From: a virus
Taxonomy: Duplodnaviria > Caudoviricetes
Length of the DNA: 64,000 nucleotides
Virus record (IMG/VR): IMGVR_UViG_3300023047_000002
Reading direction: 5' to 3' (one strand)
Shown: piece by piece, positions 18,376 through 58,985 of the stretch
Numbering within the stretch: position 1 is the first letter of the stretch
Layout: every line of letters begins with the position of its first letter
Program-made: the position numbers and the translations under genes
Notes under the pieces: model-generated
Told to the model about the DNA's origin: nothing
The model's input: only the letters and a program-made list of their open reading frames with translations
The model's database searches: none

Positions 18376-18456
18376 AAAAAGGGCTAGGTCGGCCAACCGA
18401 AAAGAAGCCTTATCCACTTCCTGCCCTTTTTCTCTGTGGATAGCGTGTTGAGGATA
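18376..18456 (+). promoter_or_regulatory. Structured RNA leader of the homing endonuclease gene (three-way junction plus possible pseudoknot)
   Basis: AAAAAGGGC/GCCCTTTTT closing stem, TCGG-ccaa-CCGA and GAAG-..-CTTC hairpins; loop TATCCA complementary to TGGATA (18437-42) and partly to the SD region GGATA. Confidence 0.5.
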
Positions 18457-33336: not shown

Positions 33337-36300
33337 TTAAAGTGATGGATATGCCCACCCGTTTCTCTCAAATAATTCAGCAACAGCTGTCTTTTGTTTG
33401 TTGGTTCCGTAAAACCAACCAATTACACGTACCACAAGGTCATCTATTTCAAGATACATGCTTCCATTACGCGGCAATCCTTGTGCAGGGTAAAATCCTG
33501 TTTCACCGTTTTTTAGAAGAACCTTGTTAATCCATCCACTGTTTCTGTCTGCAGGTGGTGTGTTGTTTACAGCTGCGTAAAAGTCTCCCCATGTAAGTTC
33601 TCCCCATAATGCTTTCATATCATCTGTCGGTGACATCAGCGTGTTGATGATTTTGTCTGTGTTTAAAAGACCGACACGTTGTGTTCGCATTACATGGTAT
33701 ACATCAGTTGTCATTCCAAGATTGCGTAATAATGTTATGGCTTTTGCAGCATTTCCATAAATTGTTTCTTGAATTGATTTCGCTGGCAAACACATTTCAT
33801 TGCCTGACGCATCAGTAGTTATAACTTCAAGCATCAACATTTGTCTGTGAAGTTCGTTTGCTACCTGTGTGTCCCTTGATACAGTTTTGAGATTCTTCAA
33901 TCTATCCATAAAGTCATTATAGAGTGCAAGTGTTTCATGGACATAGTCTCTTGATGCATAATTGTCTGCTTCTGGATTTTCCCAGTACTCCTCCAACCAG
34001 TTCCTTTTTCCAAGTGTCCATTTATTTTGTAAATAACGTCCGTCTGACAAGCATACGGCTATGGCATAATCGAGTTCCATGACATCTTTTATGTGATCCT
34101 CGTCAACACTGTTATCCAATGACAAGTCTTTATCGACAACATTCTTGTCAGACTCGAAACTTGAGTTTTTTCCATTTACTATGCGTGTGTTTGACCAACG
34201 ATCCTTTCCTGGATTGTTATTTGGCCATGCAAATCCTACTCCTTCTTCTTTAGGGTCTCTAAACGTATTATAAGACCCTAAAGTGCCATTATAGTGCAGA
34301 TTGATTACTGTACTTTCGAGCCACCAGTTGAACTTTACTTTCATTATGAAATCGTCCCATTCAGGGCCAACAGGACCTTCTGTAACCAGTTTTAGTTCAC
34401 CTGGTTCGTACCATCCACTGCCTGTTTTTGTTAGAAGATTTTTGAACGTCATATCGTAATCTGTCTTATTTGAACCTTCTGCCACCATAACCCAATCCCT
34501 GGACGATTCACACTCCCCCCAAAATGCTGTGCCATCAATATCTCTGTTTTCGTAGTTATAGAATGTGACAAAGGTTCCAAGGTGGAACTCAAAGTGACTA
34601 CTAGATACAAGGTCATGCCATCTACTCAACCTGCTTTTCAAATTGCTATGCATGGTCTCCATCTCGTTTGCGTTTGGAATATCCATGGCATTAAAATCAA
34701 CGCTGCTTGCATCACCTGAATTTACGTTCTCGATGAGAGTTAAATACGCACACTGCATAAGACGGAAGAGATACACAAGATTTGCAAAATATTTGTCTTC
34801 GCCGTTGTTTGTCGTTTTTTCATGGATTTCTTTTACATGATCTCCGTCAGTTCCATACGTTACTGCTTTTTCAACTATCGTTTTTGCCGAGTTTACTGCC
34901 TTTCCTGCCAAATCAGTACCTGAGTTATTCAGTGATTCACACAAGCCTCTTCCTATTGCTTTGAAGGCCAAGGTCAAAAATTGTAAGTGCGGATGAATCA
35001 GTAACGGTTTATCACTAAACTTTGTCACAAGACACCCGTTCTCACACAATGGTGTTTTCTCAACAAGCGTCACTTTTGTTTCATTGATCAACCGCTCTAA
35101 CTTGTTTGTTTTGAAAAAATCAAGTTTTATATTCTGAAAATATGGTCTAATGTCTTTCATATCTTCAAGAAATCCAAACAATGGGAATGGACCCTGAACA
35201 GATTCAGCCAGTTTCTCTGTACCTTGAAGCATATTAAGTGCTTTTGAAAAGTGTTCGTAAGGGAACGGTACTTCTCGGTCAGGGAGTCCGAATAACCGAT
35301 AGAGGAAAAATCCAATTTCTTGTATTACTTCCTGAATTTCTTTTACAGCTGAGTCAAGAACAGTTCCATTTTTGCCAAAAATTAATGACGACTCAAAAGC
35401 CACAGGGCTTATCGTAGCCGTCGTTGTAAGGGTTGCCATCTTGACTGCCTTTAAAAGTGCCAACCATGAAGAATCTGTCGTGTCAACGTAGTCATTCCGT
35501 AAAGGGTATACGGTTTTGAATTTTTCGTAATTTTTAGAAAAGACTTCTTCAAACGTGTAGTTTGAATTCAAAATTCTTGGGTCTGTAAGTAAATGTTCAT
35601 CCAAGAAGTTCTTTTCTCCGAGCATTATTCCTGTAATTGTCTTATATCCATCACGGTATGTATACGCATACTCAAGGGCTGCTTCAAACATTATAAGAAA
35701 TGACAGGGTACCTTCACTTCGTTTGTCTGCAAGGTAATATCGTTGCAGGTCGTTCATTTCAGAGTTCGTCATAGTGGATAAGTCTGCATCCAATGTATCC
35801 ATCTTGTCCACATTGTCTGAAATCATTTTCTTGAGTCTCTTAACCCACTCGCGCACTTCCTGAATATCCGCAATACGGAAATCAGAAGAAGACGCAAGTA
35901 AACTTTTAACAAAGTTTTTGTCCGGATTACCTGGAAGTTCCATATTTTCCGCCGCGTCCCCCAACACCACGGCTCCTGCTTGTTCATTTGGAAGCTCTTC
36001 ATACTTTATTGCATATTTTTCATCTGACTTTACCTGTTTCAACGTAATATTTTCGTCAATCAGAAATGAAATGCTGCATTCTAGTTGCCCATAAGAGTAT
36101 TGCTCACTTGTTGTGTTCTGAATCTTACCTGATGCGGGTTGCGGCAATTCGTCGTTCCATGTCGTGTAAAGGTCGCCTTTGAAATTACACTGCACTGTGT
36201 TGATGTATCCCTCAAATGTCATACCTGGAAGGTATATCTGGCATCGCTTCGGTTCGACATGAAGGTCTGGGTATTGGTACGGTCTTGAGAAATTTTGTAG

Positions 36301-37779
36301 AATGTTTGAAATGTGCATTAAAGGAGTATCAGGATATTCCTGCTGATGAAGTGTAAACGACAAATTCAACGAACGTGCATTGTGGTTTGTGTAATAAAAC
36401 CCCATTGCATTCTGACCTGCAGGAGGTACAGGGTTCTGAATGTTTGCATTACTTGAAAAAGACCCTACGGTTTCAATGCGTGAATAAACACGAAATTCCT
36501 GTGCTTCTCCAAACGTCTTCATGTCAACCCCGACAGGAGGAATCTCTACAATCTTCAGACCGTATTCGTAGTACGTTGCATTTTTCGTATTGTCCAAAGG
36601 GTCTGAAGATATTTGACCATAACTGGCTAGTCTTATGGGTTCTCTGTCTAAGGATACACGCCATGTACGTTCAATTCCTGTCTTTTTGTCGGAAAGAAGT
36701 TCGTCAAAACGTCCACGGTCTAAGGCCCATTCGCCCTCAACGGAATCCATGTTCATGGTATCGATTCCAACACCATCATCATGGTTAAGTGTGTCATCAG
36801 TGTGTTCCTTAATGTCTTTTAAGTCGTTTGGTTCTTCTGCATGACACATATCAGAAGAAGACACAAAGCATTCGTTTGAAACAGGCAGCAGGATATCGTA
36901 TTTCAGGTCATCACTTGTGAAAGGGACTTTTGATGTGCATACGTTATTTACCGCATCGTAATACCCACCAGCTTCTTCCACTTCTGTAGGTGTATTCATT
37001 GTTGCATACAAATCCATTCCGCCAAGAGACTGTTGCATTTCAGCATAAGAATCACGTGCAGACTGTAATGCCTCCGTGGCATCCTCATTCTTTTCGCCGC
37101 TTGCGTCATAAATCTCATCGGAAATACAGACGTAAGCATCCGGAGATGTTCTGCTTTGAACATAGATACCGGATGCTTTCACATAGGAGGAAACCAATGA
37201 CATCATGTCATAATTTCCGTTTGCAGAATTGGTCACAGTGACCTTTTTGCTTGCACCGTCTACAGAAGTCATTCCTACCGCCACCTGTGAGGCAACGATA
37301 GTCGAGACCTGTTCCTGCGAATCACCTGACGGAGCATAAAAGTTCTGAACCGAGCGTATTGTTGTGTCATCATATTTAGACTCACGCATCGTTGTCTCCT
37401 GGCTTTTGAATCCAGGAGACAACTTTAGAATTATCTTTTCACTAAGTCCTTCAAGATTCGCATCTTCTTTCGTACCGGGTAAAGTTGAGTACCCATTTTT
37501 TATAGCGTAAGCACACTCTTCAATGAACTGCTTAACAGACAATGTCCACATCTCATACGATTCATACTTGAATGTGTAATCAGTAAGGAATTGTCTGAAT
37601 ATGTCAAGAGCTTGGTCTCGGTTTGTATAAGATACGGAATCTTTTACGATATTCTCAATCTCATTTTCAACCTTTCTGTACTGAAGTGACTTTGTGTCTA
37701 TCCTGTAAGCTCGTTGAAAATCTGTGTTCTTGTTCTTGTACAAAGACGTTGTGTGCGTTTTATTTGATGTACCAGCCAT
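33337..37779 (-). CDS. Large virion protein with a tail-tube-initiator-like domain
   Basis: YYTNHNARSLNLSFTLH..P..C.IYLPG..FEGYI..V..N..G resembles tube-initiator domains; adjacent to the LysM gene. Confidence 0.5.
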   Translation of the reverse strand: MAGTSNKTHTTSLYKNKNTDFQRAYRIDTKSLQYRKVENEIENIVKDSVSYTNRDQALDIFRQFLTDYTFKYESYEMWTLSVKQFIEECAYAIKNGYSTLPGTKEDANLEGLSEKIILKLSPGFKSQETTMRESKYDDTTIRSVQNFYAPSGDSQEQVSTIVASQVAVGMTSVDGASKKVTVTNSANGNYDMMSLVSSYVKASGIYVQSRTSPDAYVCISDEIYDASGEKNEDATEALQSARDSYAEMQQSLGGMDLYATMNTPTEVEEAGGYYDAVNNVCTSKVPFTSDDLKYDILLPVSNECFVSSSDMCHAEEPNDLKDIKEHTDDTLNHDDGVGIDTMNMDSVEGEWALDRGRFDELLSDKKTGIERTWRVSLDREPIRLASYGQISSDPLDNTKNATYYEYGLKIVEIPPVGVDMKTFGEAQEFRVYSRIETVGSFSSNANIQNPVPPAGQNAMGFYYTNHNARSLNLSFTLHQQEYPDTPLMHISNILQNFSRPYQYPDLHVEPKRCQIYLPGMTFEGYINTVQCNFKGDLYTTWNDELPQPASGKIQNTTSEQYSYGQLECSISFLIDENITLKQVKSDEKYAIKYEELPNEQAGAVVLGDAAENMELPGNPDKNFVKSLLASSSDFRIADIQEVREWVKRLKKMISDNVDKMDTLDADLSTMTNSEMNDLQRYYLADKRSEGTLSFLIMFEAALEYAYTYRDGYKTITGIMLGEKNFLDEHLLTDPRILNSNYTFEEVFSKNYEKFKTVYPLRNDYVDTTDSSWLALLKAVKMATLTTTATISPVAFESSLIFGKNGTVLDSAVKEIQEVIQEIGFFLYRLFGLPDREVPFPYEHFSKALNMLQGTEKLAESVQGPFPLFGFLEDMKDIRPYFQNIKLDFFKTNKLERLINETKVTLVEKTPLCENGCLVTKFSDKPLLIHPHLQFLTLAFKAIGRGLCESLNNSGTDLAGKAVNSAKTIVEKAVTYGTDGDHVKEIHEKTTNNGEDKYFANLVYLFRLMQCAYLTLIENVNSGDASSVDFNAMDIPNANEMETMHSNLKSRLSRWHDLVSSSHFEFHLGTFVTFYNYENRDIDGTAFWGECESSRDWVMVAEGSNKTDYDMTFKNLLTKTGSGWYEPGELKLVTEGPVGPEWDDFIMKVKFNWWLESTVINLHYNGTLGSYNTFRDPKEEGVGFAWPNNNPGKDRWSNTRIVNGKNSSFESDKNVVDKDLSLDNSVDEDHIKDVMELDYAIAVCLSDGRYLQNKWTLGKRNWLEEYWENPEADNYASRDYVHETLALYNDFMDRLKNLKTVSRDTQVANELHRQMLMLEVITTDASGNEMCLPAKSIQETIYGNAAKAITLLRNLGMTTDVYHVMRTQRVGLLNTDKIINTLMSPTDDMKALWGELTWGDFYAAVNNTPPADRNSGWINKVLLKNGETGFYPAQGLPRNGSMYLEIDDLVVRVIGWFYGTNKQKTAVAELFERNGWAYPSL

Positions 37780-37795: not shown

Positions 37796-40700
37796 TTAGA
37801 TTATGGTCATCGTGGTCGGATTGATTCTTTCTGGATAAATAAGAGAGGGTTCGGTTTCGTAGGGTCTGAAACTGGCATTTTTATAACAAGGTTCATACAT
37901 AGTAGTAGAGTCGGTGATACCTAAGTTCAGAGTTTTAGTGAATGTCATGTATTTTATCTTGTTAAGTCTCACAGTTTCAGGTGACAACTTAATACCTGCT
38001 GTCAACTCAATAATTGGCCCAATTTCTATTGTAACAATAGTACTCTTGTAATAATCACGCAAACACTTGTGAATCACTTTAAGTGCATCGTTGTCCGAAT
38101 CTTGTGGAGGTTGAATGATACTTGGAACATCCAACTCTTCAGAACCTTCAGAAGAAATATACACATTTATAACACCATCCATCGCTTTCAGAACGATCAA
38201 CCCTTCCGGGTTCTTTGGGTACAACGTTACTGGCTCTTCAGATGGTATAGATAAGCTGTCTGGTGTGATCTTATATACATAACCTCCACTAATTGTAATT
38301 GGCTCGTCTTCTTGGATTATACGTGCCATCATGTAATGGATTTCTGTGTCGTCTATAAGATTGGTATTTTCCAGTGATTCAAAAGCCCCGGTAAGACCTG
38401 TCAAATCCTTGTTAAGGCTCAGGAACTTGTCATTCACAGGATTGTAAATTCCGAACTCAAGTATATCTACTTTCCACTCACCCATTTCCATGAAAGATTT
38501 AAATGTTTGTTCTTTATTAGGTAAGAACCCAGGTATTGGACTTGCTCCATGTTTCTTTCTGAACTTTATAGCACTGTAAGCAAAGTTTCCGATAGTCCTG
38601 TAATATGGGATACCTAGAATAGAATTTGTGATTTCATTACTTTTGCTTTCAATGTTAATGGTATAGATGTAACCATGTTTAGGATACAGATCAAAAGACT
38701 TACGTGGAAGCACTAATGACCCATCACTCAATTCAAGCATCTTAGCAAATTGGGATGAAGGATAAATTGTTATCCTTTCGCCGATGAGTGTTATTTTGTC
38801 TGAAGGGATCTGACAATAACTTTTATTTGAATCACTCACGCTTCTTACACTGTCAGAAATTTTCTGCATTAAGACCACGCCTTTTGAGTATTCATTTTCA
38901 TCAAAAACTCCAACATCGGTAGGAAGTAGAGACATCATGCGGTACGTGCCTTTCTGTAACAACTTGTCACTGTGTCTGGAATACCAGTTGTTTTCCTCAG
39001 CATTGTAGCGTGCCATCCTGAATGGCAGACAACCCGACCATGTCCAGTTACTTACTACTACACTTTCGTTTACATCTACTTCAAGAGATTGTGTAATATA
39101 AAGCGTATCATCAATTATACGTATAATTTCGTTTGAAAACTGTCTGTGTGGATTTGCAAGCACAATCCCACCAACAGGAACTTCTACAATGTGCGATTTG
39201 TCTTTCATCAACGAAGATATACCGCATAAATATTCCGGACAGTCTATGGTGTTCGCAACCAAGTGATTTGTCTGGACTTCTCCAAGACCATTGAAGTTCA
39301 CGACCGTAGATGATGGATTTGACGGACTTACAGTCACAACCCCCTGAGAACCGACAATTTTCAATCCACCGTCATCAAGAGCCTCTTCTACATAGCATAA
39401 TCCAGTCGTGATTACTCTTACAATACCAAACGCTCTGTCCGCAAAGCCCAGACTTATCCAATTGAGAGAGTTCGCCATTACAGAAAATCTAAACTGGTTT
39501 GTTGTGACATTATTTCCTGATAGCTGTACGTTTGGAGATGTGTTCGCGTATGGGAAAATTAAAGCATCCAGGCCTGAAAGTTGAAGGTCAAGATTGCGTG
39601 GAGAGGTCTGGATGTACGTGCTAAACTTATCAAGAAAAGGAATCATAAGCAGTAAAAGTGCGAGGTATAAGAAACTCGGTTCGCTTACAAGCTGTTTAAA
39701 AATTTCAAGCACACTGCGAAATGCTTCGATGTAAATACCCTCCTGTAACAGAGATACGATTTTTCCTGTAGGGTCATACTCTCCTAATGCTGTGACAATT
39801 TCTTCGTACTCTTGCTTGATAATCATCGCATCGTAAATAGAAGTGTCCAGTCCTGACACATGACCATGACGTTTAAGAAGGTCATCAAGATACACATCAA
39901 GAAGCTCACCACTAAACGGTGCGATAATCTCATAGAGTTTCTGTAAGGATTTTCCATCGGAACCTGCAAACCATCCTTCAATGATGTCAAACACTTGTTG
40001 ATTCACTGTCGGAGTGAACACACCTTCCCACGGATATGTGCGATCGAGGCATTTTGAATAGTCACCGTACCCGTCAATATAATCCATCAAATAGTCACGT
40101 CTGTACTTAGACACATTGATGTTTTTTGCAGCGTACACATCAAAAGGTAACAGTTCAGACAGTGTTTTGCCCATCCCCGTCCCTAAACGAGATATTACAG
40201 AAAACACAATGACTCTTAGGTATTCATAAACACAGGTTCGTTTTATTGAACTGTTTATGGGAAAACTTAAGAACGTAAGTTTGTTTAGACGGATAATCAG
40301 ATCATCGAGTGTTTGGCTTGCATATTGTGATGTACACCATTCATACAGTTCTGTAAGGTTCTTATCACCTGTGCTGTTAATGACGTCGTAAACCGGCATG
40401 ACATCAGGAACAATGTTTAACAGACTGTCCGGAATCGAATTTTCAGTCATAAGTCTGTAGATACGGCTTGCGTATGTCGTACCGTTAGTTATTGCCTGGT
40501 TATGATCGTCATTTTCACTTATTGTCCTGTTTTCAAGTAACATCATCAGAAGTAACTTGCTTCCGAAAGGAAGTGATCTTACGGGAACTCGGTGTGGAGA
40601 ACTCGTGATGTCTCGTGCATTCAACTGTATTCCATCCGTTTTTGAAGCACCCATGTTAATGTAAAAGTTCTTATTGCCTAGGGATGCAGAAGTTTCCCAC

Positions 40701-41194
40701 CCTTCAGTACCACGTAAAGAAGAGAATAAAAGACCTGCATTGGCCTTGCTCATCATAACCTTTTCACCAAGACCGCTAAAGGTTTGTGTTGCAACGCCAA
40801 GCCCTGAGTAAGACTCACGACCTTCAGTCTGTTCAGGGTCTTCTGTCACAAGACGATTTTTTGCAAACAAACTCATCACAGGGAACTTTCCGCTGTCAGT
40901 GTACACATTACTGTCGCGATCTGTTTCCTGCTGTGTTCTCATATACCCTGAGTAAAATGGGTCTCTGTCAACCATCTGAATGGTGTCGTTAAAGCGTTTG
41001 TGACCACGAACAAGTTGGTTGTCTCCAATGTTTTTATCGTCTTTTGAATGAATCGTTATACGACGTTCCAACTCAAGGTCTATTGGGTTTGTGTCGAACC
41101 CCTGTGTTCTGTCTCCGTTCTGTTTCGGTCGAATTAAGCTATTCTCTCTGTATCGGAGGCGTTTTGCAAAAAAGTTCTTCCCTCTCTTAGCCAT
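37796..41194 (-). CDS. Large virion/baseplate protein with an internal VPxGG domain
   Basis: 1132 aa; EVPVGGIVLANP..GTYRMMS..LMQKI matches the fibre C-terminal domain. Confidence 0.55.
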   Translation of the reverse strand: MAKRGKNFFAKRLRYRENSLIRPKQNGDRTQGFDTNPIDLELERRITIHSKDDKNIGDNQLVRGHKRFNDTIQMVDRDPFYSGYMRTQQETDRDSNVYTDSGKFPVMSLFAKNRLVTEDPEQTEGRESYSGLGVATQTFSGLGEKVMMSKANAGLLFSSLRGTEGWETSASLGNKNFYINMGASKTDGIQLNARDITSSPHRVPVRSLPFGSKLLLMMLLENRTISENDDHNQAITNGTTYASRIYRLMTENSIPDSLLNIVPDVMPVYDVINSTGDKNLTELYEWCTSQYASQTLDDLIIRLNKLTFLSFPINSSIKRTCVYEYLRVIVFSVISRLGTGMGKTLSELLPFDVYAAKNINVSKYRRDYLMDYIDGYGDYSKCLDRTYPWEGVFTPTVNQQVFDIIEGWFAGSDGKSLQKLYEIIAPFSGELLDVYLDDLLKRHGHVSGLDTSIYDAMIIKQEYEEIVTALGEYDPTGKIVSLLQEGIYIEAFRSVLEIFKQLVSEPSFLYLALLLLMIPFLDKFSTYIQTSPRNLDLQLSGLDALIFPYANTSPNVQLSGNNVTTNQFRFSVMANSLNWISLGFADRAFGIVRVITTGLCYVEEALDDGGLKIVGSQGVVTVSPSNPSSTVVNFNGLGEVQTNHLVANTIDCPEYLCGISSLMKDKSHIVEVPVGGIVLANPHRQFSNEIIRIIDDTLYITQSLEVDVNESVVVSNWTWSGCLPFRMARYNAEENNWYSRHSDKLLQKGTYRMMSLLPTDVGVFDENEYSKGVVLMQKISDSVRSVSDSNKSYCQIPSDKITLIGERITIYPSSQFAKMLELSDGSLVLPRKSFDLYPKHGYIYTINIESKSNEITNSILGIPYYRTIGNFAYSAIKFRKKHGASPIPGFLPNKEQTFKSFMEMGEWKVDILEFGIYNPVNDKFLSLNKDLTGLTGAFESLENTNLIDDTEIHYMMARIIQEDEPITISGGYVYKITPDSLSIPSEEPVTLYPKNPEGLIVLKAMDGVINVYISSEGSEELDVPSIIQPPQDSDNDALKVIHKCLRDYYKSTIVTIEIGPIIELTAGIKLSPETVRLNKIKYMTFTKTLNLGITDSTTMYEPCYKNASFRPYETEPSLIYPERINPTTMTII

Positions 41195-52925: not shown

Positions 52926-54740
52926 CTAGAACCCAATAATATACCCATAGCGATCAATCTGATTAGGAACTCTCTCAGCAGACACAAGATAATCGTTCAT
53001 TATGAATTCAAGATTGTCTTGTTTAATTACGTTTGCGGAAGCCTCTGATGGCACTGCCTGACCCACATCAAATACATAGTCTTCTGAACGCAAAACATCT
53101 GCATTAAATGCTTTATCTTTCATGTGATACACACAAATTTGCTTGATGACAAAAGCACGGTCAACTTCTGGCAATTTAGACACGCTGAAAGGATTCAGGT
53201 TCGCTCGTACAATAACGTATGTCGGAAACATGTCATCAGATGCAAGACGCCAGTAACGTCCACCATACAAGAATGTATCAGCTTCTTCTTTTTCAGCTTC
53301 ACATACAAGTTCCGCACTTCCCTTAACCATTGTCAGGAAACCAAATGCGTTGTACCAACGGCTTAGACACCAACGATGTCTACGTCTCTGGAATGCTTTA
53401 AACTCTTCAATGTCTGACACTTCAGGGACTGCAACTTCTTCACTGTACTCAATACCTGTCGAGGTTGTTGTTCGTTTTTCGTAAAATGTTCCGTTGATTT
53501 CGTACAAAGGTTTTGCATTTCCGTCCGAAGTGTCGTTCAAATCGTCCAGATAACTTACCGGGAAAATCGGATAGTTGCGGTCACGTTCCATGTCCGTAAG
53601 AGGCATCGGGTATGGTGCACCGCTAAGGTCAAATCCATTGAGGTATCTTGAAGCGTCAAGGTCTTCATACTCAGAACCGTATTCTGTCTTCTTCGATGTT
53701 GTACCACCTGTACTACCGGATGATTCTGTAATCGTCGTAGGCTTGTTTCTCTTGTCGTTTGAACGTGCACGAACCAAATCCGTCAGTACAAGGAATGGCT
53801 GTGCTTTCTGTGCATTGTATCTAGCTTGTTTCCTGTCATATAGTTCTTCAGGAGTCCAGTCTTCATACACGGTATCATATACAGGCAATCCATCTGCATC
53901 AATAACGATGTTACCGAGTGCGTCCAAACGAGCAACCTTTTTAGGTGTTCCGTCTTCGTTTAAAACAACACGTTTGCTTCCTGGTTTTTCATTAAGTCTT
54001 GGATCTTCCTGTGATGACACTGTTGTCCACTGAATCAAACCATGACGCAACCCAGATAAGTCAATACAGAAACCTTTTTCCGTATTGTCGTCTTCGGTTA
54101 ATGACGCAGAACGTGTTGCCGGTATTTCGTCCGTATTGCCATCTTCTTTGCCATTAGTCAGGTAGTAATCTCGAAATACGATTGCATAAGCACCTGCATC
54201 ATAATTGTCATGATATGCTTTCAGTATGGCACGTGCGGAAACACGTGTATCATCACTTACGTACAACGGGTCACGTGTACTATCGTAGGCAAAGTAAATC
54301 TCAGCTTTTCCGTCAGGGTTTAGCTGCATACACATCGGATGTTCAGAAAGATATGTCGATGATGCCTCCGTTCTGTTTGTCGTTAAAATCATCATCACAG
54401 GCAGTGTATATGTGAACTTCGGAATTTCAATCCAGTCGCCATCTTCAGTTCCCCATGAGGTAACAGGAACCTCCACCATACAGCCACATCCACATGGACA
54501 AGGTCTGTACTTAGGATGTACAGATTCGGAAGGAACCGTAATGTCTTCATCTGTTGAAGCATCATCATGATTCTGTTTACTGTTCTGACGGTCATTGCAT
54601 GGTGGTGCTTTTGGCATTTCAAGAGTTGTCCATGCTTTTCCACCTGTACCGAATGCAAACCACAATCCACCACCGCTGTTACAGAACTTCTTAAACTCAC
54701 GTGCTTTTACGTAACGACCATAATCCGTGAAAATTCCCAT
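52926..54740 (-). CDS. Putative baseplate wedge protein
   Basis: N-terminal GR...A..F...LWFAFG...W....P..P pattern; start 54740 from GGAGA RBS. Confidence 0.5.
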   Translation of the reverse strand: MGIFTDYGRYVKAREFKKFCNSGGGLWFAFGTGGKAWTTLEMPKAPPCNDRQNSKQNHDDASTDEDITVPSESVHPKYRPCPCGCGCMVEVPVTSWGTEDGDWIEIPKFTYTLPVMMILTTNRTEASSTYLSEHPMCMQLNPDGKAEIYFAYDSTRDPLYVSDDTRVSARAILKAYHDNYDAGAYAIVFRDYYLTNGKEDGNTDEIPATRSASLTEDDNTEKGFCIDLSGLRHGLIQWTTVSSQEDPRLNEKPGSKRVVLNEDGTPKKVARLDALGNIVIDADGLPVYDTVYEDWTPEELYDRKQARYNAQKAQPFLVLTDLVRARSNDKRNKPTTITESSGSTGGTTSKKTEYGSEYEDLDASRYLNGFDLSGAPYPMPLTDMERDRNYPIFPVSYLDDLNDTSDGNAKPLYEINGTFYEKRTTTSTGIEYSEEVAVPEVSDIEEFKAFQRRRHRWCLSRWYNAFGFLTMVKGSAELVCEAEKEEADTFLYGGRYWRLASDDMFPTYVIVRANLNPFSVSKLPEVDRAFVIKQICVYHMKDKAFNADVLRSEDYVFDVGQAVPSEASANVIKQDNLEFIMNDYLVSAERVPNQIDRYGYIIGF

Positions 54741-54780
54741 GTGTTGTCTCCATGTTATACGGTCAACCACCGTTATTACA

Positions 54781-54815
54781 GAACTAAACGCACAGATTGT
54801 TTGTGCGTTTAGTTC
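54781..54815. terminator. Perfect 14-bp hairpin downstream (minus strand) of the CRISPR array
   Basis: GAACTAAACGCACA-gattgtt-TGTGCGTTTAGTTC. Confidence 0.6.
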
Positions 54816-54961
54816 GATAAGATGCTAATTCGTTGAAGACATGACTATTGAGTTGTGAACGATTGAACAAATCTACTACACCATTGAGATTGGAGCTGTT
54901 GAAATTGGGAGCGAATACCAATGCTACTGGATTTACTGATGCCCTTGCCTTTTGTCGAGAA

Positions 54962-55129
54962 GTTTGACCATCCTTTGAATTTGCACACCTCTCAAACTTA
55001 CAGAGATTCCGATAAGGATTTCTCGTAGTTTGACCATCCTTTGAATTTGCACACCTCTCAAACCTCTCGGTGACTATGGAATGATTCGCCGATGTTTGAC
55101 CATCCTTTGAATTTGCACACCTCTCAAAC
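54962..55129 (-). CRISPR. Cas-less CRISPR mini-array, type II-like (3 x 36-bp identical repeats, 2 x 30-bp spacers)
   Basis: Repeats at 54962-54997, 55028-55063 and 55094-55129; minus-strand repeat GTTTGAGAGGTGTGCAAATTCAAAGGATGGTCAAAC; spacers (+ strand) TTACAGAGATTCCGATAAGGATTTCTCGTA and CTCTCGGTGACTATGGAATGATTCGCCGAT. Confidence 0.93.
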
Positions 55130-55131
55130 CT

Positions 55132-56187
55132 TTAAATTTGAAAGTTGATTAAAGTAAGTTCTGTCACATTAGACAACATTTTATTACATTGTGAAATCCA
55201 TTTTCTTGTCTCTGCGGAATCATCTTCGGCTTGTTCATAAATGTTAATTATTTCCTTAAACTGGGTTATGACTTCTTTAGGGAATTCCCTGTAACCTACA
55301 TCATACATTTCTATGAAATTATTAAAATATTGTCTACATACATCAAGAATGTATTCAAGAGGACTGTTTGAGGCATCAATATCTGCATATGCTGATTCAT
55401 AAGCACACAATTTTAATCGGTTAAACATTCTTGACGAGTTGTTACGCTTGTATTGCGTATGTTGTTCAGCTAAGTGGTCAAGAGCAAGACGTTTGAAGTC
55501 TTCATAATTTTGAATATCAGTATCTCTAAAGTCTACAATCATTCTTTTTTTAATCTTTGTAAACATATCATCATTCCCAAATCCAAACAAGACTTTACGT
55601 AATCGCCTTTTACCAGATTCGAGTTCTGGAGCATTAAAATCACGTTTATAATGAATTTTGTCGTCCTCTTTTTCGAGAATACGTGAAGCAGTACATCCGA
55701 TTATGTGGTGCACATACAAATTTGGTATTACATCGCCTCCATTTCGTGCAAAATAATGCTCAATGGCATCACTGACCTCTGCAAAACAATTCAAGTTTTT
55801 ATACTCAATCTGAGCTTTGCAAAGTTCCTCAACTGCTTTCTTATGGAATGAAAATGAGGGATCACCACCAATATAACGTAATCCGACAATCGTTTTATTA
55901 CTGTTGTAACCAGCCATAGCAACAACTGTTTCAGCAGAAACAATACGTTCAGTTGAAACAATCCGGACAAGAGACGTAGTCTCCGGTGTGAATCCTGTAT
56001 TATGTCCACCTTTTATGTTGTATGACAAATCAACGATCTCTGATAATCGTGAATACAATTCTGGTATAGATGCACATGCATAGTCAAGAATATACCCAAC
56101 ATCAGAATCCTTTTCTCTGAGTATTTTATCAGGATCAACTGATTCTGTCATAGGTCGCTTTCGTCTGTTCTTTATGATCAATGCCAT
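55132..56187 (-). CDS. AT-rich hypothetical protein directly upstream of the CRISPR array
   Basis: 351 aa; GAGGT RBS; MALIIKNRRKRPMTES N-terminus; SY..KGG and FAEVSDAIEHYF motifs; no RuvC, HNH or HEPN motif seen. Confidence 0.75.
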   Translation of the reverse strand: MALIIKNRRKRPMTESVDPDKILREKDSDVGYILDYACASIPELYSRLSEIVDLSYNIKGGHNTGFTPETTSLVRIVSTERIVSAETVVAMAGYNSNKTIVGLRYIGGDPSFSFHKKAVEELCKAQIEYKNLNCFAEVSDAIEHYFARNGGDVIPNLYVHHIIGCTASRILEKEDDKIHYKRDFNAPELESGKRRLRKVLFGFGNDDMFTKIKKRMIVDFRDTDIQNYEDFKRLALDHLAEQHTQYKRNNSSRMFNRLKLCAYESAYADIDASNSPLEYILDVCRQYFNNFIEMYDVGYREFPKEVITQFKEIINIYEQAEDDSAETRKWISQCNKMLSNVTELTLINFQI

Positions 56188-56256
56188 ATCTCTACCTCAC
56201 TTGGTTTGAGTTGTCTATTTCGATGGCGACAACCATTGTCGCCATCACCACACGCT

Positions 56257-56297
56257 CTTATAGCACACTCTTTCGGACAGATTCTCAAACAGCACCA
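56257..56297 (-). promoter_or_regulatory. TGGTGCT-box promoter for the 351-aa gene and CRISPR array
   Basis: Minus strand TGGTGCT-N28-TATAAG with TG extension, followed by the perfect hairpin 56222-56246. Confidence 0.7.
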
Positions 56298-56444
56298 TGA
56301 ATGTCAAACAATAACTAGGTACTCGATTTTGAAGTCATCAATTCCTTTGGTATTGGCGCGGTTCGCCACTTCCTTTGTCAGAGGACTTTGCGTACACCGT
56401 GGGGATTGAGGGGACAAATTTTTGTTTTCTGTTTTCAACATGAC

Positions 56445-56668
56445 GCGAGCAGGAATCCCACGCGGCTTTAGCCCGTGGGTAAGGCGAGCAATCTTGTTGT
56501 TGTTGAATTCGATTTGTTGTTGTGGTACAAGGTTTTCAATTCCTACGGAACATAGGAATACAATGCAAGTGGAGAACAAGACCTCTGGCAAGTCTTCAAC
56601 TAAGAAGAAAGATAAGTCTCGTTCGTTGAAACTTGAAGCCCACCGCCTAAAGGCGGTGGGTAGTTGAC
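56445..56668 (+). mobile_element. 224-bp non-autonomous IS200/IS605 (tnpB-type) miniature element
   Basis: Left hairpin GGAATCCCACGCGGCTTTAGCCCGTGGG; right end GAAGCCCACCGCCTAAAGGCGGTGGGTAGTTGAC; no tnpA or tnpB inside. Confidence 0.8.
56503..56531 (+). promoter_or_regulatory. Sigma70-like promoter inside the miniature element
   Basis: TTGAAT-N17-TACAAG with TGn extension. Confidence 0.5.
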
Positions 56669-56688
56669 TTATCAACTTTACGTACACC
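56540..56688 (+). ncRNA. Putative TnpB omegaRNA (reRNA) scaffold plus about 20-nt guide
   Basis: TTCCTA-cggaaca-TAGGAA hairpin, GCAAGTGGAGA, AAGAC..GTCTT stem, TCGTTGAAACTTGAAG (CAAG/CTTG pairing), right-end hairpin; guide TTATCAACTTTACGTACACC. Confidence 0.65.
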
Positions 56689-56765
56689 GTGATGAAAGCG
56701 GTTGGTTATTGTGAACCACCTCTTCATATTTCTGTTATCAACTTTACATACACCGTGAATGACAA

Positions 56766-57248
56766 ATGGGACTTTTTACATCGCTTTTACCAACTGAATC
56801 AGAACGGAATCTTCAAATCGGATTTATCGATGAAGGAATGCGACTGTATGGAATTGAAGCCGTACTCATTGATGTAGATTCCGTGTCATTCTATTCAGAC
56901 AATCACAAGTTGTCAGGACGTGAAAAACACATACACGTGTTGTTTCAAGACCACCCGAATAGGAGACTATTAGCAAATCTCCAATTCAATCACATTGAAC
57001 GAAACGAACCTGCAATAATCGTGTTTATTCCGTTCCAGTTTGGTGGCGTACATCTCGACATAGTTAAAGATCAGGTTCTCGTTATCGGAGAAGATAATTG
57101 GGTCATAAAAGCCGTGAACTGCACATACTTCACGGGACTTTGGTACGTATGCCATGTCGTTCCGTTTATGATGGAAGAAGACAGACCAAGAGATCAATCC
57201 AGACATAAATCTCAATTCTTCAATCCAGGTGAAGTTGAGTTCGAATGA
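56766..57248 (+). CDS. Putative neck / head-completion protein (T4 gp14-like)
   Basis: FIDEGMRLYGIEAVLI N-terminal pattern; beta-barrel-like composition. Confidence 0.45.
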   Translation: MGLFTSLLPTESERNLQIGFIDEGMRLYGIEAVLIDVDSVSFYSDNHKLSGREKHIHVLFQDHPNRRLLANLQFNHIERNEPAIIVFIPFQFGGVHLDIVKDQVLVIGEDNWVIKAVNCTYFTGLWYVCHVVPFMMEEDRPRDQSRHKSQFFNPGEVEFE

Positions 57249-57277
57249 CCCGTCTCACACACTCAAACAGAAAGTGC

Positions 57278-57389
57278 TCAAATTTGACATGTACTAAAAA
57301 GTTACGACCTTACCCTGGTAAGTACTAGGGTAAAATAAAAAATCGCGTAGAACGCAAACTAGAGGCATTCTACGCGATTTCCATTTTCA
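57278..57389. repeat. About 112-bp dispersed intergenic repeat, copy B
   Basis: Matches 23481-23593; contains inverted repeats TACCCT.GTA/TACTAGGGTA and AAATCGCGTAGAA/TTCTACGCGATTT. Confidence 0.85.
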
Positions 57390-57409
57390 CTCTGTTAAAT
57401 TAGTGTACA

Positions 57410-58897
57410 TCACTCTGCATTGATTATGCGAAGTTCACCGTTTAATGTTACATCAGGGTCGGTCTCTAATGAATTTATTTGTTCCATCGTTAAATCGGTT
57501 GGATAGATAATTTCTCCTGTTACTGGATCAAGAGCTTCCTCTACAAAGTCTTTTGCACTTTGGAGGTCGCTATAAGGTCCGTTAAAGAATGTGGACACTG
57601 CTCTAATATCGTTTATAGCGTTCATCTTGGTTTCTTCAAACAGCACTATTCTGTAAGGAGGTTTATTCTCATCAAGCTCTGTCTTTTTAACAAATTTCCA
57701 TGCGGTTGGTGAATCGCCAAGTGTCTCATTCACAGTGCGTAAAGCCTCTTCAATACCATCAAATTCTTCTTCGTGAATAACTTCAGGATAATCCACACGC
57801 AATCCTGACATAATTGTTTTACTGTGTTGATTCACATAGTCTGTAATATCAGACAAACTCATTTCTCCGTAAGCGTCACCTCTGTGTTGTGCTACTGCGG
57901 ACATCGACTTTGAAACACCGAGTAATGCATTGGCAAGTATTAAAGTGTATTCATCAGGTTCAGTTGCATCGCCACTTGGGTCATCAGGTTCAGTTACATC
58001 GCCACTCGGGTCATCGGTCACACGTACAATTTCCTCAGTGTTCATAACACGATAATATTCCTCGCCGAATTTCATGTCCAGGGTAACAATTTCTTCCTCA
58101 CCATTGTTGACGATTGCGGCATCTCTAGGTTCTTGCAACAATTCGCCTTTTAAGAACTCACCAACAATTCCGTCAGCTCCTACGTAAGGGGGTTCTTCTT
58201 GTTCATAGACGCTTCCAATGAGAATGTCTGTTCCGTCAACATCAACAAGGAAGTAATAATGATCATCGTCTGAGAGATAAGTAGCTTTAAAGTCTTCATC
58301 AGTTAATATTTTTAATGCGGGCCATACTTTGTCTGTCTCTGGTGTTCCGCCGTAAGGGTCTTGTTGTATTTGATCCTCAGTGTAAATAAAGGCACCTCTC
58401 AAGAACTCAGGTACTTCAGACAGTTTTTGTCCACCGATGGATTCAAAGTAATTATCCCAATCAAACGAAGCAACACCCTCTTCTTCAAGATTGCAATGCC
58501 AGACGTATGGAGCATCCTCACTTTGTGACATCGCAACAAGATGTTTCTTTCCACCCGCTTCAACTATTTTACCATAACGATAAGGAACGCGAACGTATGT
58601 CACACCGTTTATGACTCTTTTATGCGTGGATGTAAGATTCTGCTGTTTGTCCATGCTCACGATGGTTTGTTGGCCTTTCTCTGATACGATGGTTACATTA
58701 AAAGGCGTAGATACGGCATTTGAAATTTTATGACCGGGGTAATTTCCGATTGACGCTGATGTAACTTCTTGTAAGTCACTAATACCTTCCTGTAAGTTAG
58801 CGTCATACTCAACGGTAGTTGTTACCTGAGCTTGAAGATCTGAATCACTAAATGATTTTTCATACCTATCAATCAAAATAGCTGTTCTGTAACTCAT
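57410..58897 (-). CDS. Acidic hypothetical protein, probably virion-associated
   Basis: GAGGT RBS; 30-bp tandem duplication at 57951-58015 (DDPSGDxTEP x2). Confidence 0.6.
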   Translation of the reverse strand: MSYRTAILIDRYEKSFSDSDLQAQVTTTVEYDANLQEGISDLQEVTSASIGNYPGHKISNAVSTPFNVTIVSEKGQQTIVSMDKQQNLTSTHKRVINGVTYVRVPYRYGKIVEAGGKKHLVAMSQSEDAPYVWHCNLEEEGVASFDWDNYFESIGGQKLSEVPEFLRGAFIYTEDQIQQDPYGGTPETDKVWPALKILTDEDFKATYLSDDDHYYFLVDVDGTDILIGSVYEQEEPPYVGADGIVGEFLKGELLQEPRDAAIVNNGEEEIVTLDMKFGEEYYRVMNTEEIVRVTDDPSGDVTEPDDPSGDATEPDEYTLILANALLGVSKSMSAVAQHRGDAYGEMSLSDITDYVNQHSKTIMSGLRVDYPEVIHEEEFDGIEEALRTVNETLGDSPTAWKFVKKTELDENKPPYRIVLFEETKMNAINDIRAVSTFFNGPYSDLQSAKDFVEEALDPVTGEIIYPTDLTMEQINSLETDPDVTLNGELRIINAE

Positions 58898-58985
58898 AAA
58901 GTACCTCACTATTTGCCCCTAGAAACTTACTATGATTTATAGGATTCACTTCATATCACCCTATTTTAGTGTAGATATAGTTGCA

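What the first reader, a model, noticed from the sequence alone, without database searches (positions are those of the whole stretch)
54781..56297. Cas-less type II-like CRISPR mini-array fused to the 3' end of an unknown gene and under a phage promoter
Seen: three identical 36-bp repeats and two 30-bp spacers. The first repeat (minus strand) starts 2 bp after the stop codon of a 351-aa AT-rich gene, so there is no room for a leader. The gene is preceded by a TGGTGCT-box promoter, and a perfect hairpin lies about 150 bp past the array. I saw no cas gene, no tracrRNA anti-repeat and no spacer match in the window. Established: 36/30 geometry and a GTTTGAGAG...CAAAC repeat are typical of type II (Cas9) arrays, and from memory it resembles the Treponema denticola II-A repeat. 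Phage mini-arrays that borrow host effectors are known. Inference: the phage makes pre-crRNA as the 3' UTR of this mRNA and uses host Cas9/tracrRNA against competing phages or host genes, or as a decoy. The co-transcribed protein (SY..KGG, FAEVSxAIEHYF) is a candidate uncharacterised partner.
Basis: partly seen in the sequence, partly recalled or inferred. Interest (0 to 1): 0.82.

Follow-up and report, generated by a model that had tools for sequence, protein, structure and literature searches.

The report
Orphan Cas9-type CRISPR mini-array in phage
A roughly 243-kb phage from cattle-gut samples carries a real two-spacer CRISPR array of the Cas9 (type II-A) kind with no Cas9 or helper RNA found nearby, so it most likely borrows its host's Cas9; this is a known phage strategy seen here with a less usual CRISPR type.

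Summary
Three identical 36-bp repeats and two 30-nt spacers lie at 54962-55129 on the minus strand. The first repeat starts 2 nt after the stop codon of a 351-aa gene. That gene sits behind a TGGTGCT-type promoter.

The repeat belongs to a type II-A family. Its relatives (26-32 of 36 identical) sit beside cas9-cas1-cas2-csn2, with a tracrRNA anti-repeat upstream of cas9.

I examined 95 kb of the ~243-kb phage genome (55 kb on one side of the array, 40 kb on the other). I found no cas9, cas1, csn2, anti-repeat or protospacer. The phage's own tnpB lies 37.5 kb away and shows no link to the repeat. About 148 kb could not be searched.

The array is identical in independent assemblies, so there is no sign of spacer turnover. 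A relative whose gene product is 97% identical lacks the array, and so do all more distant homologues with readable flanks. The gene-array adjacency is therefore incidental. The gene encodes a GNAT-fold protein, not a Cas-like partner.

No host with a matching repeat was found (nearest 31/36), and no spacer target was found.

Most likely this is a captured orphan mini-array read through from the upstream gene and fed to host Cas9/tracrRNA. A decoy role or a silent passenger remain open.

This scan has noted cas-less II-A-like arrays in other phages before.

The parts
56257..56297 (-). Promoter of the TGGTGCT class: TGGTGCT box (56291-56297), 23-nt spacer, extended -10 TGTGCTATAAG (56257-56267)
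   Evidence: 18 copies of TGGTGCT against 6.2 expected; nine intergenic copies share the TGGTGCT(G)-N~21-TGTGGTATAAG layout; other copies precede the PolA and DnaB-like helicase genes. Function is inferred.
56222..56246 (-). [quoted passage not shown]
   Evidence: Read directly from the sequence. Role unknown.
55132..56187 (-). 351-aa gene: GNAT-fold N-terminal domain (about residues 20-213) plus a helical C-terminal domain. It belongs to an uncharacterised phage protein family.
   Evidence: ORF. No Pfam or PHROG match. 101 remote relatives. AlphaFold model with pLDDT 86.9. All 50 best VIA matches are GNAT-superfamily folds, Z 8.1-11.0. Most of the best Foldseek rows are GNAT acetyltransferases and include phage Mu Mom; no row reaches E 0.001.
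55130..55140 (-). Leader-end-like motif CAAATTTAAAG: the last codons and stop of the gene plus AG, directly before repeat 1
   Evidence: family leaders end in CAAATTTGAG(G) or CAAATTTTGAG; the motif is 2 substitutions away, and only 0.36% of window positions match as well. The array-less relative L009 has the same gene end, so its meaning is open.
55094..55129 (-). Repeat 1 (36 bp)
55064..55093 (-). Spacer 1 (30 nt); no target found
55028..55063 (-). Repeat 2 (36 bp, identical)
54998..55027 (-). Spacer 2 (30 nt); no target found
54962..54997 (-). Repeat 3 (36 bp, identical)
54937..54961 (-). 25 nt trailing the array. Contigs of other strains diverge from the window at 54936, so this stretch may be a truncated third spacer captured with the array.
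   Evidence: tables 5, 7 and 8 (X1 and X2 contigs stop fitting at 54936). Interpretation is inferred.
54776..54820 (-). Inverted-repeat arms (19 nt, 89% complementary) holding a perfect 14-bp hairpin with a 7-nt loop, 141 nt after repeat 3 and about 35 nt before the first ATG of the next gene. No U-tail.
   Evidence: not called as an intrinsic terminator. Unique in the window.

Best explanation
This is an orphan CRISPR mini-array of the type II-A (Cas9) repeat family. A ~243-kb phage of the cattle gut appears to have captured it from a bacterial array.

Proposed mechanism, with each step marked:
1. The array has no promoter-bearing leader of its own. It is transcribed as the 3' extension of the mRNA of the upstream GNAT-fold gene, from a TGGTGCT-class promoter that also drives replication genes. 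(Inferred.)
2. In an infected cell whose type II-A system has a matching tracrRNA, host tracrRNA, RNase III and Cas9 would process the transcript into two fixed crRNAs: spacer 1 with repeat 2, and spacer 2 with repeat 3. (Inferred from the established type II pathway.)
3. These crRNAs would direct host Cas9 against competing mobile elements, as described for other virus-borne mini-arrays. (Inferred; no target found.)

The neighbouring 351-aa protein is not part of the system.
For: Anatomy:
- Three identical 36-bp repeats and two 30-nt spacers.

Family:
- 66 loci in genomes and metagenomes carry repeats 26-32/36 identical.
- Where flanks are present, most of these loci show Cas9, Cas1 or Csn2 by tblastn.
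- L012 has cas9-cas1-cas2-csn2-leader-array by Pfam, with repeats in the same orientation as the cas operon.
- In four relatives with cas9 upstream sequence, a 20-24-nt near-perfect partial repeat copy just upstream of cas9 marks the tracrRNA anti-repeat.
- The repeat itself is unstructured, as expected for type II.

Phage context:
- Intein-bearing PolA, DnaB-like helicase, RNA ligase and Dam methylase in the window.
- The same sequence lies on a 243,109-bp contig.

Orphan status:
- No cas9, cas1, csn2 or anti-repeat in the window or in the next 31 kb.

Expression:
- The gap between the stop codon and repeat 1 is 2 nt.
- No terminator was called between the promoter and the array.
- The promoter class is recurrent.

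Stability:
- The array is identical in an ENA contig and a JGI contig.
- Two Logan contigs end inside repeat 1.

Precedent:
- Viral mini-arrays with host-type repeats target related viruses (PMC11656645, PMC6858448).
- Huge phages carry compact arrays that may use host Cas proteins (PMC7162821).
Against: - No bacterial array with an identical repeat was found. There were 0 exact matches in the genome, metagenome and viral collections. The nearest is 31/36 typical, 32/36 for one copy (L069). The literature describes host-identical repeats for such mini-arrays.
- tracrRNAs of four sampled relatives would pair poorly with the phage repeat: -18 to -25 kcal/mol, against -36 to -45 for their own repeats.
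- No protospacer was found for either spacer.
- There is no evidence of transcription or processing. The laid runs were contigs that do not cover the array.
- About 148 kb of the genome was not searchable, so a phage cas9 is not excluded.
Confidence: 0.45

Rival explanations
1. RNA decoy or regulator. The repeats, expressed from a phage promoter, pair with host tracrRNA and load Cas9 with useless guides, or with guides that silence cas9. This would weaken host immunity, like Racr solitary repeats or the viral scaRNAs and vsgRNAs described for Cas9 systems. The spacer content would be secondary or regulatory.
For: - The array shows the same orphan status and promoter-driven expression as above.
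- The spacers have no detectable targets.
- The array is fixed across samples.
- Earlier readers' unchecked notes say the genome carries other anti-defence genes.
- Phage guide-plus-repeat units that use host tracrRNA to repress the cas9 promoter or sequester Cas9 have been reported (preprint 10.64898/2026.06.01.729453). Racrs are described in PMC10651486.
Against: - Racrs are typically solitary repeats, and viral scaRNAs carry short guides matching the cas9 promoter. Here there are two full-length 30-nt spacers in a regular array.
- No Acr or Aca gene was recognised nearby.
- No partial match of either spacer to sequences upstream of cas9 in family loci exceeded chance: best 12 nt, about 2 expected.
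- The host cas9 promoter is unknown, so the key test could not be done.
Confidence: 0.2
2. Silent passenger. A fragment of a host CRISPR array (repeat-spacer-repeat-spacer-repeat plus part of a spacer) was picked up recently by illegitimate recombination in a variable intergenic spot. It has no function in the phage.
For: - A relative whose protein is 97% identical lacks the array, and the whole intergenic region differs.
- Strains diverge 25 nt past the last repeat, as expected for a mosaic hot spot.
- The three repeats are identical and the array is invariant. This fits recency as well as it fits selection.
- No matching host, target or tracrRNA was found.
- The leader-end-like motif shared with the array-less relative could be the microhomology used for capture.
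Against: - The array is complete, in the sense orientation behind a promoter, and begins exactly at a repeat boundary next to a leader-like motif.
- It is present in assemblies from several samples and studies.
- None of these points excludes neutrality.
Confidence: 0.2
3. Guides for a phage-encoded effector. The array would serve either a Cas9 encoded in the unexamined 148 kb, or the phage's own TnpB. This scan proposed the TnpB reading for II-A-like mini-arrays in other phages.
For: - Huge phages can encode Cas9 systems (PMC7162821).
- This genome has a tnpB gene (L085 19957-21279, Pfam PF12323, PF01385, PF07282) and many transposase-less IS200/IS605-like elements (earlier notes).
- Earlier reports in this scan linked similar arrays to TnpB.
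Against: - tnpB lies 37.5 kb from the array and ends in an ordinary IS200/IS605-type right-end hairpin. No similarity or duplex with the repeat exists around it: best -24.9 kcal/mol, below the chance level.
- No scaffold RNA is fused to the array. A conserved coding sequence lies upstream. The 165 nt downstream of position 54937 is shared with strains that diverge at the array.
- The neighbouring ORFs have no TnpB, IscB or Cas domains.
- The repeat, including the part that pairs with tracrRNA, is a typical Cas9-family repeat.
- None of the 68 first-reader notes on the genome's seven windows that my word look-ups returned mentions a cas gene. This is weak evidence.
Confidence: 0.1

Closest known systems
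Virus-borne mini-CRISPR arrays that exploit host Cas proteins (Saccharolobus portogloboviruses, PMC6858448; reviewed in PMC11656645)
   Same: - A cas-less array of one or two spacers on a viral genome.
- Host-type repeats.
- Presumed dependence on host effector proteins.
   Different: - Those repeats are identical to the host's and most spacers hit related viruses. Here no identical host repeat and no target were found.
- The type here is II-A, which also needs a host tracrRNA and RNase III.
- There is no separate leader; the array abuts a stop codon.
Compact CRISPR arrays of huge phages (Al-Shayeb et al. 2020, PMC7162821)
   Same: - A phage of more than 200 kb from a gut habitat.
- A short array.
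- The paper itself suggests use of host Cas proteins, or silencing by spacer-repeat RNAs.
   Different: - Many of those arrays sit beside phage cas genes, including Cas9.
- None was found within 95 kb here.
Type II-A CRISPR-Cas loci with GTTTGAGAG...CAAAC repeats in gut, rumen and oral bacteria (for example L012 Desulfovibrionales MAG, L020 and L024 Clostridia MAGs, and the Treponema denticola-type repeat in L025 and L074)
   Same: - 36-nt repeat, 30-nt spacers and the same orientation.
- 26-32 of 36 repeat positions identical.
- A leader-end-like motif before the first repeat.
   Different: - Those loci have cas9, cas1, cas2, csn2, a 100-200-nt leader, a tracrRNA anti-repeat and arrays of up to 50 repeats.
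- The phage has only three repeats.
RNA anti-CRISPRs (Racr, PMC10651486) and viral scaRNAs/vsgRNAs against Cas9 (preprint 10.64898/2026.06.01.729453)
   Same: - Phage-encoded CRISPR-repeat RNA.
- Would engage host Cas proteins, and for scaRNAs the host tracrRNA.
   Different: - Those are solitary repeats or guide-repeat units with short guides aimed at the cas9 promoter, usually beside Acr or Aca genes.
- Here there is a regular array with two full spacers and no recognised Acr neighbour.
Phage TnpB/TranC-like cassettes with captured CRISPR arrays
   Same: - A two-spacer, II-A-looking array in a large gut phage.
- The phage also carries tnpB.
   Different: - In those cases the array and tnpB form one small cassette with a scaffold RNA.
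- Here tnpB is 37.5 kb away with its own ordinary right end, and no scaffold or anti-repeat is present.

Membership tests
Type II-A CRISPR array (repeat family GTTTGAGAG...CAAAC) | 36-nt direct repeats separated by about 30-nt unique spacers | tested here: met
   Three identical 36-bp repeats, two 30-nt spacers, 66-bp period
Type II-A CRISPR array (repeat family GTTTGAGAG...CAAAC) | Repeat sequence related to repeats that flank cas9-cas1-cas2-csn2 | tested here: met
   26-32/36 identity to repeats of 66 loci. Cas9, Cas1 and Csn2 lie next to them.
Type II-A CRISPR array (repeat family GTTTGAGAG...CAAAC) | cas9 (with cas1, cas2, csn2) adjacent to the array | tested here: not met
   None in the 64-kb window or the next 31 kb. 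The remaining ~148 kb of the genome could not be searched.
Type II-A CRISPR array (repeat family GTTTGAGAG...CAAAC) | tracrRNA with an anti-repeat complementary to the repeat | tested here: not met
   No match above 11-12 nt. The best duplex of -29.6 kcal/mol equals shuffled controls. Relatives have 20-24-nt near-perfect anti-repeats.
Type II-A CRISPR array (repeat family GTTTGAGAG...CAAAC) | AT-rich leader with a promoter and a conserved leader end next to repeat 1 | tested here: inconclusive
   There is no separate leader; coding sequence runs to 2 nt before repeat 1. The last 11 nt resemble family leader ends (2 substitutions; 0.36% of positions do as well).
Virus-borne mini-array that uses host Cas | Array of one or two spacers carried on a viral genome without cas genes | tested here: met
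   Phage genes throughout. 243-kb contig. No cas genes in 95 kb.
Virus-borne mini-array that uses host Cas | Repeats identical to those of the host's CRISPR system | tested here: inconclusive
   The host is unknown. There were 0 exact matches in three collections. The nearest is 31/36 typical, 32/36 for one copy (L069). 0 of 401 sampled Clostridia-class genomes carried it.
Virus-borne mini-array that uses host Cas | Spacers match related viruses or other mobile elements | tested here: inconclusive
   No protospacer in the window, 31 kb more of the genome, relatives' contigs, IMG/VR (four partial patterns), or GenBank phages and plasmids. The searches needed exact or near-exact matches.
Virus-borne mini-array that uses host Cas | crRNAs made and loaded into the host effector | not testable with these tools
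   Only assembled contigs were available for the runs. They break at the repeats.
RNA anti-CRISPR (Racr) / viral scaRNA | Solitary repeat, or a guide-repeat unit with a short guide matching the host cas promoter | tested here: not met
   This is a regular array with two 30-nt spacers. No above-chance match to sequences upstream of cas9 in family loci. The true host promoter is unknown.
TnpB/TranC-type guide cassette | Array fused to an omega-RNA-derived scaffold and linked to a tnpB gene | tested here: not met
   Coding sequence lies upstream. No scaffold or anti-repeat is present. tnpB is 37.5 kb away with no relation to the repeat.
GNAT acyltransferase superfamily (351-aa protein) | GNAT alpha/beta fold | tested here: met
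   Model pLDDT 86.9. All 50 best VIA matches are GNAT-superfamily folds: Z 8.1-11.0, 124-165 residues aligned, rmsd 3.2-5.5. Most of the best Foldseek rows are also GNAT, probabilities up to 1.00, no E value below 0.001.
GNAT acyltransferase superfamily (351-aa protein) | Sequence match to a GNAT family model and an acyl-CoA binding motif | tested here: not met
   No Pfam GNAT hit in the protein or in 47 relatives. No Q/R-x-x-G-x-G/A motif was identified by eye. Activity is unknown.

The most novel reading that the evidence does not exclude
A jumbo phage delivers two fixed Cas9 guides as the 3' untranslated tail of an early or middle mRNA. It relies entirely on the host's tracrRNA, RNase III and Cas9 to mature and use them. 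This would reprogram host Cas9 during infection, either to destroy competing phages or to jam Cas9. The retained leader-end-like motif might even let the host's Cas1-Cas2-Csn2 machinery add spacers to the phage copy. It would be a clear case of a virus hijacking a dual-RNA (tracrRNA-dependent) CRISPR pathway with nothing but repeats and spacers.
Probability: 0.25. Interest if true: 0.65.

Novelty: new member of a known kind. Interest (0 to 1): 0.38.

Why it matters
Cas-less viral mini-arrays are an accepted strategy. Well-studied cases involve class 1 systems, where a repeat-spacer RNA is enough. A Cas9-type array also needs a matching host tracrRNA. A working example would show that phages can plug into the dual-RNA pathway, and it would tie the phage to hosts with one specific repeat/tracrRNA pair, which is a useful host marker for an uncultured rumen jumbo phage.

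The direct fusion to a gene's stop codon suggests a simple way to express captured arrays without a leader.

The finding also gives a clean negative. The adjacent protein is not a CRISPR partner, and the phage's TnpB is not linked to this array.

Tried and rejected
- **Exact repeat search.** 0 hits in viral, genome and metagenome collections. The family pattern gave 0 hits in viral contigs.
- **Spacer searches.** The 3' 24-mers and 5' 20-mers gave 0 hits in IMG/VR. The array against GenBank phages and plasmids gave only chance-level hits or none.
- **Family spacers against the window.** 531 spacers from family arrays were compared with the window; the best match was 17 nt with 1 mismatch, which is chance.
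- **Spacer 2 near human-gut arrays.** A 12-nt match near five human-gut arrays is one orthologous site, with about 2 such matches expected by chance.
- **Laying sequencing runs.** Only short contigs were available, and they break at the repeats.
  - There is no information on expression, processing or spacer variation.
  - The RNA-library contig covers only part of the gene and differs at 13 of 566 positions.
- **Weak Cas9 hit.** A tblastn hit of Cas9 (aa 151-273) to the 499-aa ORF 57410-58909 (E 0.007) was rejected. Pfam finds no Cas9 domain even at E 5.
- **Degenerate repeat remnant in L009.** Rejected: 65-67% of shuffles score as well.
- **Solitary family repeats in rumen MAGs.** L018 is a broken array remnant, not a solitary unit. 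L014 and L017 were not examined.
- **Whole-genome search.** No genome is held for the window. The 243-kb record cannot be searched by handle. I walked 31 kb beyond the window instead.
- **Host search.** 0 of 401 sampled genomes of the Clostridia class carry the phage-type or L069-type repeat. This is a sample, not proof of absence.
- **Rfam.** Nothing at E up to 1 in 53500-58000. There is no tracrRNA or CRISPR-DR family hit in the window at gathering scores.
- **First structure model.** The 7-sequence alignment gave pLDDT 50 and was superseded.
- **Protein Atlas.** No usable hit.
- **Relatives of the 351-aa gene in IMG/VR.** One distant locus (27% identity), without an array.
Full report
**1. 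What is in the sequence**

Read on the minus strand, a 351-aa ORF (55132-56187) ends in TAA. Two bases later (AG) the first of three identical 36-bp repeats begins. The repeats lie at 55094-55129, 55028-55063 and 54962-54997. They are separated by two unique 30-nt spacers, giving a 66-bp period.

The repeat reads GTTTGAGAG...CAAAC. It has no stable fold of its own (-2.3 kcal/mol, z +0.7).

A perfect 14-bp hairpin lies within the inverted-repeat arms at 54776-54820, 141 nt after the last repeat. It has no U-tail and was not called as an intrinsic terminator. It is unique in the window.

Upstream of the ORF, TGGTGCT (56291-56297) lies 23 nt before an extended -10, TGTGCTATAAG. The heptamer occurs 18 times in the window against 6.2 expected. 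Nine intergenic copies share one layout, TGGTGCT(G)-N~21-TGTGGTATAAG, each facing a gene. Two of those genes are the intein-bearing PolA and a DnaB-like helicase. The promoter class therefore appears to serve replication-stage genes.

**2. What kind of repeat it is**

A degenerate pattern of the repeat found 13 loci in species-representative genomes and 53 in metagenomes. Their repeats share 26-32 of 36 positions with the phage repeat.

Where flanking DNA is present, most of these loci show Cas9, Cas1 or Csn2 by tblastn. L012 carries cas9-cas1-cas2-csn2, a leader and the array by Pfam, with the repeats in the same orientation as the cas operon.

In four relatives with cas9 upstream sequence, a 20-24-nt near-perfect partial copy of repeat positions 9-32 lies just upstream of cas9. 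This is the tracrRNA anti-repeat.

So the phage repeat is a member of a type II-A family, and the minus-strand orientation, co-directional with the 351-aa gene, is the transcribed one.

The nearest relative is L069, a 31-repeat array whose typical repeat is 31/36 identical and one copy 32/36. Four of its five differences are A in L069 against G in the phage. These would still allow G-U pairs with a tracrRNA matched to L069. That point is an inference.

**3. Whose genome it is, and whether it is orphan**

The window is phage DNA. It encodes PolA with inteins, a DnaB-like helicase, an RNA ligase, a Dam methylase and many proteins with no known family.

The exact 351-aa protein lies on nine contigs. 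One is a 243,109-bp ENA contig that is 99.99% identical to the window. Another is a JGI contig that is 100% identical.

Runs that hold the stretch are labelled bovine gut or gut metagenome and come from 11 studies. Contigs of three bovine-gut or gut runs were laid on it.

In the window I found no Cas9 domains in any ORF of 800 aa or more. There was no convincing tblastn hit for Cas9, Cas1 or Csn2. No anti-repeat appeared: the best BLAST match was 11 nt, and the best RNA duplex of -29.6 kcal/mol equals shuffled repeats at -27 to -35. No self-target was found.

No whole genome is held for the window. I therefore walked the ENA contig 31 kb beyond the window end (L083-L085). Again there was no cas gene, anti-repeat or protospacer.

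Altogether 95 kb was examined, from 55 kb on one side of the array to 40 kb on the other. About 148 kb remains unexamined. My word look-ups among the earlier first-reader notes on all seven windows of this genome returned none that mentions a cas gene. That is weak evidence only.

**4. The TnpB rival**

Earlier reports of this scan re-read II-A-looking phage mini-arrays as parts of TnpB cassettes. This genome does have a tnpB.

I found it at L085 19957-21279.

The tnpB lies 37.5 kb from the array and ends in an ordinary IS200/IS605-type right-end hairpin. The region has no similarity to the repeat and no duplex with it (best -24.9 kcal/mol).

The array has coding sequence upstream, not a scaffold RNA. 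The 165 nt beyond position 54937 is shared with strains that diverge at the array. I rate this rival low.

**5. The neighbouring gene**

The relative whose protein is 97% identical (L009) has the same gene end. After the stop codon, however, it continues into a hairpin and a dispersed 17-nt motif, with no repeat or remnant of one.

The homologues at 63% (L001, L002, L010), 46% (L011), 44% (L003-L008) and 27% (L082) whose flanks could be read also lack arrays.

A profile search found 101 remote relatives. With 48 sequences, the AlphaFold model reached pLDDT 86.9.

Residues about 20-213 match GNAT acyltransferase folds. All 50 best VIA matches are of that superfamily, Z 8.1-11.0. Most of the best Foldseek rows are too, with probabilities up to 1.00 but no E value below 0.001, and they include phage Mu Mom. 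The C-terminal third is helical.

There is no sequence-level GNAT hit, so activity is unknown.

**6. Origin of the array**

In true family leaders, the bases before the first repeat are conserved as CAAATTTGAG(G) or CAAATTTTGAG. The phage has CAAATTTAAAG at that place, 2 substitutions away. Only 0.36% of window positions match any of 14 family leader ends that well.

The array-less L009 has the same gene end. The motif may therefore be the microhomology at which a host leader-array fragment recombined, a captured leader end that became the gene's last codons, or a coincidence.

Contigs of other strains stop matching at 54936, 25 nt past the last repeat. The captured block may therefore be three repeats, two spacers and part of a third spacer. 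One X2 contig shows the repeat behind the same TTAAAG but preceded by a different sequence. This second context remains unexplained.

**7. Function**

The array is identical wherever it was assembled, so there is no sign of spacer turnover.

No bacterial array with the identical repeat was found. tracrRNAs of four relatives would pair poorly with the phage repeat: -18 to -25 kcal/mol, against -36 to -45 for their own repeats. No target of either spacer was found. No expression data could be obtained.

On anatomy and precedent, I consider the following most likely:
- The array is read through from the gene's promoter.
- The transcript is matured by host tracrRNA, RNase III and Cas9.
- The resulting guides direct Cas9 against competitors.

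Precedent comes from viral mini-arrays (PMC11656645, PMC6858448) and compact huge-phage arrays (PMC7162821).

A decoy or regulator role is the main rival. It is modelled on Racrs (PMC10651486) and on the viral scaRNAs and vsgRNAs reported in 2026 (preprint 10.64898/2026.06.01.729453). Behind it stand a neutral, recently captured passenger and a phage-encoded effector in the unexamined DNA.

**8. Verdict**

This is a real, tidy, orphan type II-A-family mini-array on a rumen jumbo phage: a new member of a known kind.

The fusion to a stop codon and the need for a host tracrRNA are unusual details. The proposed protein partner is refuted, and the borrowing of Cas9 remains an inference.

This scan has reported cas-less II-A-like arrays on other phages before (e1-2790719, e1-3635907, e1-3475772).

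Noticed in passing
window 4364, 11075, 11431, 13476, 21190, 23594, 24908, 61156 (+) and 56297 (-): There is a promoter-like class: TGGTGCT(G), about 21 nt, then an extended -10 (TGTGGTATAAG). The heptamer occurs 18 times against 6.2 expected. Copies precede PolA and a DnaB-like helicase, which suggests a phage-specific early or middle promoter, possibly activator-dependent.
   Followed up: partly
window 46978, 56385, 56675, 56741 (+); L009 about 1722, L001 about 1440, L010 about 1228: A 17-nt motif, ACTTTGCGTACACCGTG, occurs four times in the window against 0.11 expected. It also recurs just downstream of the 351-aa gene's homologues in related phages, at the spot where this phage has the array. 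It may be a promoter or a mobile-element end.
   Followed up: partly
L085 19957-21279 (-), contig k141_462726 about 156,963-158,285: The phage tnpB (440 aa; PF12323, PF01385, PF07282) ends in an IS200/IS605-type right-end hairpin. It lies close to the position expected if the genome is circular, so the 243-kb contig is probably a complete, circularly permuted genome.
   Followed up: partly
window 55130-55135, run X2 (table 7): One contig carries the CRISPR repeat behind the same TTAAAG junction, but it is preceded by a different sequence. That sequence has an open frame ending ...FGFTQTSN at the same TAA. This is a second genomic context for the array in the same sample.
   Followed up: no
window 54936 to 56538, run X1 (table 5): One contig joins 54936 to 56538, skipping the array and the whole 351-aa gene. 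The shorter side is only 28 nt. It may be a strain that lacks the cassette, or a spurious join.
   Followed up: no
window 4456-9816 (+): The 1786-aa family A DNA polymerase is interrupted by intein and homing-endonuclease domains (Intein_splicing, LAGLIDADG_3, Hint). The DNA ligase and a helicase in L084/L085 also carry LAGLIDADG or Hom_end domains.
   Followed up: no
window 18377-18445 (+): This is the only Rfam hit at gathering score in the window: int-alpA RNA (RF02996), 40.4 bits.
   Followed up: no
window 33337-37779 and 37796-41194 (-): Two adjacent ORFs of 1480 and 1132 aa have no Pfam or PHROG match. Three more ORFs of 716-918 aa are equally blank. They are not Cas9-like by Pfam or tblastn.
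   Followed up: partly
window 56187 downward (N-terminus of the 351-aa protein): The protein starts with a basic peptide ending in Glu-Ser (MALIIKNRRKRPMTE|S). Close homologues have similar starts. If so, this GNAT-fold protein may be packaged in the virion.
   Followed up: no
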